Assembly: GCF_016903815.1 (NCBI RefSeq)
Contig: NZ_CP069973.1
DNA from: Escherichia coli
GTDB lineage: Bacteria > Pseudomonadota > Gammaproteobacteria > Enterobacterales > Enterobacteriaceae
Strand: one strand, 5' to 3'
Length of the DNA stretch: 64,000 bases
Positions 19,478 through 22,400 of the stretch are shown piece after piece; positions within the stretch are counted from its first letter, which is position 1, and each line of letters opens with the position of its first letter. Position numbers: made by a program.

Positions 19478-22400
19478 TTAATTCCACTGTGAAAACGAAT
19501 ATTTATTTTGCGTTCCCGTTTGTTTTATTTTTGTTAACATTTAATATAATTATTATTAACCTCGTGGACGCGTTAATGGCTAACTCATAATGGGTATTCA
19601 ATTGGCTGCGTTTTGTGATGTTAGTCACAGTTTTTTATCGGGTAAAAACAGGGCGTCTTTGTGTAAATATTCATTGTTTATCAATGTGATGAGTTTGATT
19701 GTGAGTAAAAAAATAGCATCTGACTTTCAATATTGGTGATCCATAAAGCAATATTGAAAATTTCTTTTTGCTACGCCATGTTTTCAATATTGGTGAGGGA
19801 CTTAACAATATTGAAAGTTGGATTTATCTGCGTGTGACATTTTCAATATTGGTGATTAAAGTTTTATTTCCAAATTAAAGGGCGTGATATCTGTAATTAA
19901 CACCACCGATATGAACGACGTTTCCTTCATGATTTCTGGAGATGCAATGAAGATTATTACTTGCTATAAGTGCGTGCCTGATGAACAGGATATTGCGGTC
20001 AATAATGCTGATGGTTCGTTAGACTTCAGTAAAGCCGATGCCAAAATAAGCCAATACGATCTCAACGCTATTGAAGCGGCTTGTCAGCTAAAGCAACAGG
20101 CAGCAGAGGCGCAGGTGACGGCCTTAAGTGTGGGCGGTAAAGCCCTGACCAACGCCAAAGGGCGTAAAGATGTGCTATCGCGCGGTCCGGATGAACTGAT
20201 TGTGGTGATTGATGACCAGTTCGAGCAGGCACTGCCGCAACAAACGGCGAGCGCACTGGCTGCCGCCGCCCAGAAAGCAGGCTTTGATTTGATCCTCTGT
20301 GGCGATGGTTCTTCCGACCTTTATGCCCAGCAGGTTGGTTTGCTGGTAGGCGAAATCCTCAATATTCCGGCAGTTAACGGCGTCAGCAAAATTATCTCCC
20401 TGACGGCAGATACCCTCACCGTTGAGCGCGAACTGGAAGATGAAACAGAAACCTTAAGCATTCCGCTGCCTGCGGTTGTTGCTGTTTCCACTGATATCAA
20501 CTCCCCACAAATTCCTTCGATGAAAGCCATTCTCGGCGCGGCGAAAAAGCCAGTCCAGGTATGGTCGGCGGCGGATATCGGTTTTAACGCAGAGGCAGCC
20601 TGGTCAGAACAACAGGTTGCCGCGCCGAAACAGCGCGAGCGGCAGCGCATCGTGATTGAAGGCGACGGCGAAGAACAGATCGCCGCATTTGCTGAAAATC
20701 TTCGCAAAGTCATTTAATTACAGGGGATGCTATGAACACGTTTTCTCAAGTCTGGGTATTCAGCGATACCCCTTCTCGTCTGCCGGAACTGATGAACGGT
20801 GCGCAGGCTTTAGCTAATCAAATCAATGCCTTTGTCCTCAATGATGCCGACGGCGCACAGGCAATCCAGCTAGGCGCTAATCATGTCTGGAAATTAAACG
20901 GCAAACCGGACGATCGGATGATCGAAGATTACGCCGGTGTCATGGCTGACACTATTCGCCAGCACGGCGCAGACGGTCTGGTGCTGCTGCCAAACACCCG
21001 TCGCGGCAAATTACTGGCGGCAAAACTGGGTTATCGCCTTAAAGCGGCGGTGTCTAACGATGCCAGCACCGTCAGCGTACAGGACGGTAAAGCGACAGTG
21101 AAACACATGGTTTACGGCGGTCTGGCGATTGGCGAAGAACGCATTGCCACGCCGTATGCGGTACTGACCATCAGCAGCGGCACGTTTGATGCGGCTCAGC
21201 CAGACGCGTCACGCACTGGCGAAACGCACACCGTGGAGTGGCAGGCTCCGGCTGTGGCGATTACCCGCACGGCAACCCAGGCGCGCCAGAGCAACAGCGT
21301 CGATCTCGACAAAGCCCGTCTGGTGGTCAGCGTCGGTCGCGGCATTGGCAGCAAAGAGAACATTGCGCTGGCAGAACAGCTTTGTAAGGCGATAGGTGCG
21401 GAGTTGGCCTGTTCTCGTCCGGTGGCAGAAAACGAAAAATGGATGGAGCACGAACGCTATGTCGGTATCTCCAACCTGATGCTGAAACCTGAACTGTACC
21501 TGGCGGTGGGGATCTCCGGGCAGATCCAGCACATGGTTGGCGCTAACGCGTCGCAAACCATTTTCGCCATCAACAAAGATAAAAATGCGCCGATCTTCCA
21601 GTACGCGGATTACGGCATTGTTGGCGACGCCGTGAAGATCCTTCCGGCACTGACCGCAGCTTTAGCGCGTTGATCCACTCTGGCAGGGCTGCATTTTGGC
21701 CCTGCCGCTGACAGGGAGCTCTTATGTCCGAAGATATCTTTGACGCCATCATCGTCGGTGCTGGGCTTGCCGGTTCGGTTGCCGCACTGGTGCTCGCCCG
21801 CGCAGGGGCGCAAGTGTTAGTTATCGAGCGTGGCAATTCCGCAGGTGCCAAGAACGTTACTGGCGGGCGTCTCTATGCCCACAGTCTGGAACACATTATT
21901 CCAGGTTTCGCCGAATCCGCCCCCGTAGAACGCCTGATCACCCATGAAAAACTCGCGTTTATGACGGAAAAGTCAGCGATGACTATGGACTACTGCAACG
22001 GTGACGAAACCTCGCCATCCCAGCGTTCTTACTCCGTTTTGCGCAGTAAATTTGATGCCTGGTTGATGGAGCAGGCCGAAGAAGCGGGCGCACAGTTAAT
22101 TACCGGGATCCGCGTCGATAACCTCGTACAGCGCGATGGCAAAGTTGTCGGTGTAGAAGCCGATGGCGATGTGATTGAAGCGAAAACGGTGATCCTTGCT
22201 GATGGGGTGAACTCCATCCTTGCCGAAAAGTTGGGGATGGCAAAACGCGTCAAACCGACGGATGTGGCGGTTGGCGTGAAGGAACTGATCGAGTTACCGA
22301 AGTCGGTTATCGAAGACCGTTTTCAGTTGCAGGGTAATCAGGGTGCGGCTTGCCTGTTTGCGGGTTCCCCCACCGATGGCCTGATGGGCGGCGGCTTTCT

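What the first reader, a model, noticed from the sequence alone, without database searches (positions are those of the whole stretch)
19725..19854. Three evenly spaced TTTCAATATTGGTGA copies in the caiT-fixA divergent region: two complete inverted-repeat operators plus an orphan half-site
The 11-mer TTTCAATATTG and its exact reverse complement CAATATTGAAA, separated by 13 bp, occur twice (19725-19759 and 19782-19816), matching the described CaiF site architecture. A third exact TTTCAATATTGGTGA at 19840-19854, about 58 bp further on and closest to the fixA start, has no partner half-site. The ~57-58 bp periodicity puts the sites at a regular spacing; the orphan half-site could be a weaker or cooperative site.
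Basis: partly seen in the sequence, partly recalled or inferred. Interest (0 to 1): 0.4.

Follow-up and report, generated by a model that had tools for sequence, protein, structure and literature searches.

The report
Unpaired CaiF box inside fixA promoter
The third copy of the CaiF recognition sequence upstream of fixA is real, has no partner, sits inside the predicted core promoter, and is the most widely conserved element of the carnitine control region, so it is probably a working promoter-proximal activator site that published descriptions of this region (as far as I could read them) do not mention.

Summary
The first two have exact reverse-complement partners 13 bp away and are the published CaiF sites F1 and F2 of the E. 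coli caiT-fixA region. The third has no partner in any of 20 genera.

The third box is not a marginal extra. In 56 of 57 species with such boxes, the box nearest fixA is unpaired. It is followed by an invariant GTGA and a conserved T-rich block, at a fixed distance from fixA. Hafnia, Edwardsiella, Budvicia and relatives have no palindromic sites, only this box, and Edwardsiella encodes a true CaiF orthologue. In metagenomes the composite motif occurs essentially only upstream of fixA.

In E. coli the box fills the 17-bp spacer of the only predicted sigma-70 promoter on the fix strand (GTGACA-17-TAAAGT).

CaiF belongs to the CaiF/GrlA family. GrlA is reported to activate from a non-palindromic target in a promoter spacer. 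I therefore think the box is a promoter-internal CaiF site that helps RNA polymerase. Binding is untested.

Moderate interest: a new variant of a known kind.

The parts
19725..19759 (+). CaiF site F1. Left arm TTTCAATATTG(GTGA) at 19725-19739, right arm CAATATTGAAA at 19749-19759, with a 13-bp gap.
   Evidence: I7. The architecture matches the published F1/F2 description.
19782..19816 (+). CaiF site F2. Left arm at 19782-19796, right arm at 19806-19816. It is in fact a near-perfect 35-bp palindrome: 16-nt arms, 88% complementary, 3 nt between them.
   Evidence: I3, D1.
19792..19807 (.). CRP-like motif GGTGAGGGACTTAACA (8 of 10 matches to TGTGA-N6-TCACA), centred at 19799.5 on the dyad of F2.
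   Evidence: It is one of only two motifs with 8/10 or better in the intergenic region.
19841..19855 (+). The third, unpaired CaiF box. The conserved unit is the 14-mer TTCAATATTGGTGA at 19842-19855.
19834..19862 (+). Predicted sigma-70 promoter of fix: GTGACA (19834-39), 17-bp spacer (19840-56), TAAAGT (19857-62). The inferred +1 is 19869. The unpaired box fills the spacer.
   Evidence: it is the only hit on the + strand. One search shows that the remembered positions are consistent with +1 at 19869.
19861..19869 (+). Conserved T-rich block GTTTTATTT (consensus GT(T/A)TTATT across 20 genera), always 5 nt after the box's GTGA.
19883..19898 (+). Second conserved block in the fix leader (consensus c.TG.TAt.T.Tatt). 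Its function is unknown.
19614..19629 (.). Perfect CRP/FNR-type site TGTGATGTTAGTCACA, 41.5 bp upstream of the inferred cai start (19580). The cai -10 CATTAT is the reverse complement of 19587-19592.
   Evidence: The -41.5 position is quoted in PMC3680233.
17960..19474 (-). caiT.
19947..20717 (+). fixA.
11821..12216 (+). caiF (131 aa), the activator that recognises these boxes. Pfam family CaiF_GrlA.

Best explanation
The third copy is a working, promoter-internal CaiF recognition box, not a leftover.

**Shown.**
- The conserved unit is a 14-bp box, TTCAATATTGGTGA. It is identical to the fix-facing (left) arms of the two CaiF palindromes, always points towards fixA, is always unpaired, and is followed after 5 variable bases by GT(T/A)TTATT.
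- It is the invariant core of the cai-fix control region across Enterobacterales. The palindromic sites vary in number from 0 to 3.

**Inferred.**
- In E. coli the box occupies -28 to -14 of the fix promoter, which is the spacer between GTGACA and TAAAGT.
- One CaiF protomer binds there, probably stabilised by RNA polymerase and perhaps by the CaiF/CRP complex on F2, which lies 59 bp upstream and carries a CRP-like motif at -69.5.
- From within the core promoter it helps polymerase bind or open the DNA. This is how GrlA, CaiF's only characterised family relative, is reported to activate LEE1 P1 from a non-palindromic target in the promoter spacer.
- F1 and F2 would then be lineage-specific upstream additions, made by tandem duplication of a unit of about 59 bp. 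They add CRP-dependent cooperativity and serve the distant cai promoter.
For: - **Exactness.** Three exact 15-mers against a chance expectation of 0.18.
- **Conservation depth.** Across 20 genera all 14 box positions are at least 90% conserved, while flanking positions are near random.
- **Architecture.** Of 57 species with boxes, 56 end on the fix side with an unpaired box: PPu 25, PPPu 8, Pu 8, u 10, uu 2, Puu 2, uuu 1 (P = paired box, u = unpaired box, read towards fixA). Only Entomohabitans lacks it.
- **Sole box in some families.** Leminorella, Limnobaculum, Edwardsiella, Budvicia, Hafnia and Serratia sp. H1w have no palindromic site, only the unpaired box. Edwardsiella still encodes a CaiF orthologue next to fixABCX (50% identity, E 5e-49).
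- **Truly unpaired.** The expected partner position scores as background in all 20 genera.
- **Same type as the left arms.** The unpaired boxes and the left arms share an invariant TGA extension that the right arms lack.
- **Specificity.** Of 40 metagenome matches to the composite motif, 37 have fixA downstream at 104-107 or 311-342 nt, 2 are on truncated contigs and 1 is a chance hit in an AT-rich coding region.
- **Within E. coli.** 4802 of 5389 genomes are identical over 19820-19885. A 110-bp patch 130 bp upstream is only about 70% identical between alleles.
- **Promoter position.** The only sigma-70-like hit on the fix strand is GTGACA-17-TAAAGT at 19834-19862, and its spacer is the box.
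- **Start-site consistency.** The two best CRP-like motifs are centred at 19621.5 and 19799.5. They fit the remembered -41.5 (cai), -69.5 (fix) and 289-bp start-site separation only if fix +1 is 19869. The -41.5 is also quoted in PMC3680233.
- **Family link.** CaiF is a Pfam CaiF_GrlA member and its only solved relative by sequence is GrlA. GrlA's target is described as lying in the 18-bp spacer of LEE1 P1 and lacking dyad symmetry (PMC4730234 citing Islam 2011).
Against: - No binding data exist here. Every paper I could read describes only two CaiF sites, F1 and F2. This suggests that footprinting with CaiF alone did not show a third site. I could not read Buchet 1998 or 1999 to check.
- A single arm should bind a protomer weakly.
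- Proteins that bind between -35 and -10 usually repress.
- The E. coli spacer is already the optimal 17 bp, so MerR-style realignment of the promoter elements is not needed.
- The fix start site rests on a consensus scan plus numbers recalled from memory, not on data read here.
- Outside the Escherichia/Citrobacter/Salmonella clade the GTGACA and TAnnGT hexamers are not conserved. Other registers are possible there: TTCAAT-17-TATTTT, or a -10 about 50 bp downstream. If the downstream register is correct, the box would lie upstream of the promoter in those genera, not inside it.
Confidence: 0.55

Rival explanations
1. Auxiliary cooperative site. The box is a weak extra CaiF half-site that only helps to load or stabilise CaiF on F2/F1. 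It has no contact with RNA polymerase.
For: The spacing to the last palindrome is tightly conserved: 59 bp in 35 species and 60-61 bp in 5. The literature I could read reports cooperative complexes but only two sites.
Against: Ten species have the unpaired box and no palindrome to cooperate with. The box is more conserved than F1 or F2. Its distance to fixA and to the T-rich block is as fixed as its distance to F2. A 59-bp interval is about 5.6 helical turns, so successive boxes lie on nearly opposite faces of the DNA.
Confidence: 0.12
2. Negative or limiting site. CaiF bound in the promoter spacer occludes RNA polymerase. This would dampen fix relative to cai, or hold the promoter closed until the effector arrives.
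For: The predicted position, -28 to -14, is typical of repressor operators. The published footprints mention no activating third site.
Against: CaiF is known only as an activator of fix. In the genera where this is the only box there would be no activating site at all. GrlA, the family relative, activates from a spacer target.
Confidence: 0.13
3. Promoter element or duplication relic that CaiF does not bind. The 14-mer is conserved because it is core promoter DNA: TTCAAT could serve as a -35 with TATTTT 17 bp downstream in most genera. F1 and F2 resemble it only because they arose by duplicating the promoter segment.
For: The TTCAAT-17-TATTT(T) register is found in 12 of 20 genera. The F1 and F2 units share similarity beyond the arms (51 nt, 73%), which is consistent with tandem duplication (D1).
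Against: Sigma-70 does not demand 14 invariant bases. In the E. coli register the box is spacer DNA, which polymerase does not read base by base. Exactly the same 14-mer forms the arms of sites that CaiF is reported to bind. The motif is found only at fixA.
Confidence: 0.12

Closest known systems
CaiF operator sites F1 and F2 of the E. coli cai-fix intergenic region (Buchet et al. 1999, Mol Microbiol 34:562; read only as quoted in PMC12083890 and PMC3680233)
   Same: The recognition sequence is identical: TTTCAATATTG plus the GTGA extension of the left arms. It lies in the same intergenic region, in the same orientation, and one unit further along the array of about 59-bp units.
   Different: It has no inverted partner 13 bp away and no CRP-like motif beside it (6 of 10 matches, against 8 of 10 in F2). 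It lies inside the predicted core promoter, whereas F2 and F1 are centred at about -70 and -127. It is present in taxa that lack F1 and F2 altogether.
GrlA target in the LEE1 P1 promoter of EHEC/EPEC (Islam et al. 2011, as cited in PMC4730234)
   Same: The regulator belongs to the same Pfam family, CaiF_GrlA. [quoted passage not shown] The LEE1 P1 sequence TTGACA-18-TACACA was confirmed upstream of ler.
   Different: The LEE1 spacer is 18 bp, which is suboptimal, whereas the fix spacer is 17 bp. The spacer sequences are not convincingly alike: about 8 of 13 positions in AT-rich DNA, by eye. The recognition-helix residues differ between the two proteins. LEE1 has no upstream palindromic sites for GrlA.
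MerR-family activators (MerR, SoxR, CueR) that bind the promoter spacer
   Same: An activator site centred near -22, within the spacer (inference; the MerR description is in PMC4730234).
   Different: MerR sites are palindromes in over-long spacers of 19-20 bp. Here the site is a single arm in a 17-bp spacer, and the protein family is unrelated.
Lambda cII at P_RE (established knowledge, not examined here)
   Same: An activator that binds within the core promoter, on DNA shared with RNA polymerase.
   Different: cII binds direct repeats that flank the -35 element, and it is an unrelated protein.

Membership tests
CaiF operator (F-site) as published | 11-bp arm TTTCAATATTG | tested here: met
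   There is an exact match at 19841-19851. The first T is variable across genera in all classes of box.
CaiF operator (F-site) as published | Perfect inverted partner arm separated by 13 bp | tested here: not met
   The partner position scores -33 bits in the window, and -15 to -39 bits across the 20 genera. True arms score 12.4 bits or more. F1 and F2 do meet this feature.
CaiF operator (F-site) as published | Located in the caiT-fixA intergenic control region | tested here: met
   RefSeq annotation of identical alleles. In 37 of 40 metagenome matches fixA lies downstream.
CaiF operator (F-site) as published | Bound by CaiF (footprint or gel shift) | not testable with these tools
   The literature available here names only F1 and F2. 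The primary papers were not readable.
GrlA-type spacer target | Regulator is a CaiF_GrlA family protein | tested here: met
   PF07180, 27.4 bits against a cut-off of 25. GrlA (4KT5_C) is the only match among solved structures.
GrlA-type spacer target | Target lies between the -35 and -10 hexamers and lacks dyad symmetry | tested here: inconclusive
   This is met for the predicted E. coli promoter GTGACA-17-TAAAGT, and the site is unpaired. However, the start site was not verified from data here, and the hexamers are not conserved outside the Escherichia/Citrobacter/Salmonella clade.
GrlA-type spacer target | Suboptimal spacer length, whose correction bypasses the activator | tested here: not met
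   The predicted spacer is 17 bp, which is optimal.
MerR-type activator site | Palindromic site in a 19-20 bp spacer | tested here: not met
   The site is a single arm and the spacer is 17 bp.
CRP site | TGTGA-N6-TCACA with the key G:C pairs in both halves | tested here: not met
   GGTGATTAAAGTTTTA gives 6 of 10 matches and the right half lacks both C positions. F2's centre gives 8 of 10 and the cai-side site 10 of 10.

The most novel reading that the evidence does not exclude
The unpaired box embedded in the fix core promoter is the ancestral and universal CaiF response element. CaiF/GrlA-family proteins would then be a class of activators that work as single protomers from a non-palindromic site inside the promoter, between -35 and -10. 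The textbook CaiF palindromes F1 and F2, with a CRP site at their centre, would be later lineage-specific enhancers made by tandem duplication of the promoter box.
Probability: 0.3. Interest if true: 0.55.

Novelty: new variant of a known kind. Interest (0 to 1): 0.42.

Why it matters
The cai-fix region is a long-standing model of co-activation by CRP and a specific activator, and the fix promoter is now used in carnitine biosensors. If the conserved box inside the promoter is the real point of action of CaiF, three things follow:
- The current two-site model is incomplete.
- Promoter engineering of the biosensors should target this box.
- CaiF and the virulence regulator GrlA would share a mechanism, activation from a non-palindromic site in the promoter spacer, that is so far supported only for GrlA.

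The finding also shows how a simple promoter-internal box may have been elaborated into arrays of one to three composite CaiF-CRP palindromes.

Tried and rejected
- **Cryptic degenerate partner arm for the third box.** Rejected by weight-matrix scoring in 20 genera.
- **Mirror-image half-site in the cai promoter** (ATTCAATTGG at 19596-19605, in the cai promoter spacer). It is not conserved even within E. coli (K-12 has ATTCAATAAG) or across genera. The conserved part there is the cai -10 region.
- **Third box as a CRP site.** Only 6 of 10 matches.
- **Sequence homology between the fix spacer and the GrlA-responsive LEE1 P1 spacer.** About 8 of 13 positions in AT-rich DNA and in a different register, so not convincing.
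- **RNA element.** Rfam gives nothing beyond a chance palindrome hit, 19.6 bits against a gathering score of 90.
- **Extra copy in caiF.** TTTCGATATTG at 11919-11929 has one mismatch and lies inside the caiF coding sequence. About 1.5 such hits are expected by chance.
- **A single promoter register shared by all genera.** None was found. The -10 sits at box+15 in 6 genera and box+23 in 12, and box+50-53 is possible in several.
- **Reading Buchet 1998/1999 and finding a mapped fix start site.** The papers are not held. The Cappable-seq supplements had no entry at the positions I tried. Searches for the motif or for a third CaiF site in the literature returned nothing relevant.
- **tblastn for caiF in the CaiT-anchored loci.** The loci were too short to contain it. 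This was solved for Edwardsiella with a longer locus. The same look-up for Hafnia found no record.

Full report
**1. What is in the sequence**

The window is E. coli. The intergenic stretch 19475-19946 is 100% identical to strain 7/2, and RefSeq annotates caiT on its left and fixA on its right. caiT is 17960-19474 on the minus strand and fixA starts at 19947.

The 15-mer TTTCAATATTGGTGA occurs exactly three times in 64 kb: 19725-39, 19782-96 and 19841-55. Chance expectation is 0.18, even allowing two mismatches.

The first two copies have exact reverse-complement partners (CAATATTGAAA) after 13 bp. The spacing between copies is 57 and 59 bp. F2 is really a 35-bp near-palindrome with 16-nt arms and 3 nt between them (I3). 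The F1 and F2 units are 73% alike over 51 nt, so they look like tandem duplicates (D1).

**2. What is already known**

Papers I could read quote Buchet et al. 1999. [quoted passage not shown] None mentions a third copy. The two primary papers are not held. I therefore cannot exclude that the authors noticed the third copy.

**3. Comparative evidence**

A CaiT-anchored scan of one genome per species gave 80 loci. In about 57 of them caiT and fixA are divergent neighbours and carry boxes of this type.

- *The terminal box is unpaired.* Writing P for a paired box and u for an unpaired one, read towards fixA, the architectures are PPu (25 species), PPPu (8, Proteus), Pu (8), u (10), uu (2, Budvicia), Puu (2) and uuu (1) (Providencia, where the right arms have decayed) and P (1, Entomohabitans). 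So 56 of 57 end with an unpaired box next to fixA.
- *Spacing.* All 85 paired boxes have exactly the 13-bp gap. The distance from the last palindrome to the unpaired box is 59 bp in 35 species and 60-61 bp in 5. Palindrome-to-palindrome spacing ranges from 55 to 59 bp.
- *Consensus.* Across one representative of each of 20 genera, the consensus is TTCAATATTGGTGAt..agGTtTTATTtt. All 14 box positions are at least 90% conserved, and the flanks are near random.
- *No partner.* The partner position scores as background in every genus.
- *Same type as the left arms.* Left arms and unpaired boxes share an invariant TGA after TTCAATATTG(G/T). Right arms do not. The unpaired box is therefore a left-arm-type unit, and it always points to fixA.
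- *Sole box in some families.* Leminorella, Limnobaculum, Edwardsiella, Budvicia, Hafnia and Serratia sp. H1w have no palindrome, only this box, 264-349 nt before fixA.
- *CaiF is present there.* Edwardsiella carries a real CaiF orthologue beyond fixX (50% identity, E 5e-49).
- *Specificity.* An exact scan of metagenome contigs with TTCAATATTGGTGA-N5-GTWTTAT gave 40 matches. In 37, fixA lies downstream at 104-107 or 311-342 nt. Two are on truncated contigs, and one is a chance hit inside a gene of a very AT-rich organism.
- *Within E. coli.* 4802 of 5389 genomes are identical over 19820-19885.

**4. Position relative to the promoters**

The consensus scan finds one sigma-70-like promoter on the fix strand: GTGACA (19834-39), 17 bp, TAAAGT (19857-62). 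The 17-bp spacer, 19840-56, is the box plus one base on each side.

The intergenic region contains only two motifs with 8 or more of 10 matches to TGTGA-N6-TCACA:
- one centred at 19621.5, with 10 of 10 matches;
- one centred at 19799.5, with 8 of 10 matches, exactly on the dyad of F2.

From memory, the abstract of Buchet 1999 gives CRP sites at -41.5 of cai and -69.5 of fix, and start sites 289 bp apart. These three numbers fit the two motifs only if cai +1 is 19580 and fix +1 is 19869, because 41.5 + 178 + 69.5 = 289. The -41.5 and a -90.5 site for cai are also quoted in PMC3680233. The conserved cai -10, CATTAT, sits at the right place for this start.

On this basis the box spans -28 to -14 of fix. 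This step is an inference: it rests on a prediction plus remembered numbers that turn out to be self-consistent with the sequence.

Outside the Escherichia/Citrobacter/Salmonella clade the two hexamers are not conserved. Other registers are possible there, namely TTCAAT-17-TATTTT in 12 genera, or a -10 about 50 bp further on. So 'inside the core promoter' is reasonably supported for E. coli and open for the rest.

**5. Link to the protein family**

CaiF (11821-12216) is a Pfam CaiF_GrlA protein. GrlA (4KT5) is its only solved relative by sequence.

GrlA is described as activating LEE1 P1 through a target in the 18-bp spacer that has no dyad symmetry (PMC4730234 citing Islam 2011). I confirmed that the LEE1 P1 sequence lies upstream of ler.

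A single, non-palindromic, spacer-located site is therefore a known mode of action in this family. The fix box fits it, except that its spacer is already 17 bp.

**6. Best explanation and rivals**

Best explanation (confidence 0.55): the box is a promoter-internal CaiF site at which one protomer, stabilised by RNA polymerase and perhaps by the F2 complex, assists initiation. F1 and F2 are upstream elaborations.

Rivals:
- a purely cooperative helper for F2 (0.12). This is weakened by the ten species that have no palindrome;
- a limiting or repressive site (0.13). The position fits, but there would then be no activating site in the single-box genera;
- a promoter or duplication relic that CaiF does not bind (0.12). 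This is hard to square with 14 invariant bases identical to the arms of the bound sites, found only at fixA.

The main evidence against my reading is as follows. The literature reports only two footprinted sites. A lone arm should bind weakly. Spacer binders usually repress.

**7. The even spacing**

A 59-bp interval is about 5.6 helical turns, so the copies are not in phase. The constant F2-to-box distance is more simply explained if both elements are fixed relative to the promoter, with the CRP-like centre of F2 at -69.5 and the box in the spacer. The array growing by duplication of a unit of about 59 bp also explains it. Proteus has an exact 59/59/59 series.

**8. Verdict**

The F1/F2 part is already known. 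The unpaired box is a real, deeply conserved and apparently undescribed element, whose position and conservation argue for a central role in fix activation and not a peripheral one.

It is a new variant of a known kind, of moderate interest (0.42). The decisive tests are a footprint with polymerase present, a box mutation that keeps the hexamers and spacing, and start-site mapping in a single-box species.

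Noticed in passing
window 19603-19712: There is a hypervariable patch between the cai-side CRP site and F1. The window's allele is only 68-71% identical here to K-12-like, O157-like and other Escherichia alleles, while both flanks are 98-100% identical (E. albertii's left flank is lower). Only 493 of 5391 E. coli genomes carry this allele at 99% identity or more. This looks like recombinational replacement or diversifying change of a regulatory segment.
   Followed up: partly
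window 19792-19807: The 13-bp 'spacer' of F2 is itself a CRP-like motif, GGTGAGGGACTTAACA (8 of 10 matches), centred on the F2 dyad. Each palindromic site therefore looks like a composite of CaiF arm, CRP site and CaiF arm. The GTGA half is invariant in all left arms, whereas the right half is weaker.
   Followed up: partly
window 19883-19898: A second conserved block lies in the fix leader (consensus c.TG.TAt.T.Tatt across 20 genera), about 20 nt after the T-rich block. In E. coli it begins with a GTG (19884) that is in frame with fixA. In other genera it begins with ATG or GTG followed by a few hydrophobic codons and stops at variable distances. The pattern of conservation (third codon positions conserved, first positions variable) argues against a coding constraint.
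   Followed up: partly
L030, L031, L033-L037 and L049 (Proteus), positions -283 to -106 before fixA: Proteus species carry three complete palindromes plus the unpaired box, at an exact 59-bp period.
   Followed up: partly
L051 and L084 (Budvicia), about -338/-311 and -306/-279 before fixA: There are two unpaired boxes in direct repeat, 27 bp apart. Each is followed by GTGA-N5-GTATT, and there is no palindrome.
   Followed up: no
L085/L086 (Edwardsiella), 2590-3021: caiF lies beyond fixX, an MFS transporter gene and a hydrolase gene, not downstream of caiE as in E. coli. A second AMP-binding (CoA ligase-like) gene follows caiD. A box-like TGCAATATTCGTGA with two mismatches sits about 60 nt upstream of caiF, in the opposite orientation.
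   Followed up: no
L004 (E. coli strain SFE8): An IS26 transposase gene lies about 300 bp from caiT in place of the fix side of the region. This explains why this genome matches only the first 53% of the intergenic query.
   Followed up: no
window 11919-11929: TTTCGATATTG, one mismatch from the CaiF arm, lies inside the caiF coding sequence. About 1.5 such hits are expected by chance in the window.
   Followed up: partly
L040 (Entomohabitans teleogrylli): This is the only species with a palindromic CaiF site (at -226) but no unpaired box near fixA. Its fix-proximal 150 nt are unrelated to those of its relatives.
   Followed up: no
L059-L083 (Campylobacter, Shewanella, Ferrimonas, Malaciobacter, Desulfovibrio): These organisms have close CaiT homologues (68-74% identity) but either no adjacent fixA or a fixA about 0.9-1.9 kb away, and no CaiF-type boxes. 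Regulation there is presumably different.
   Followed up: no
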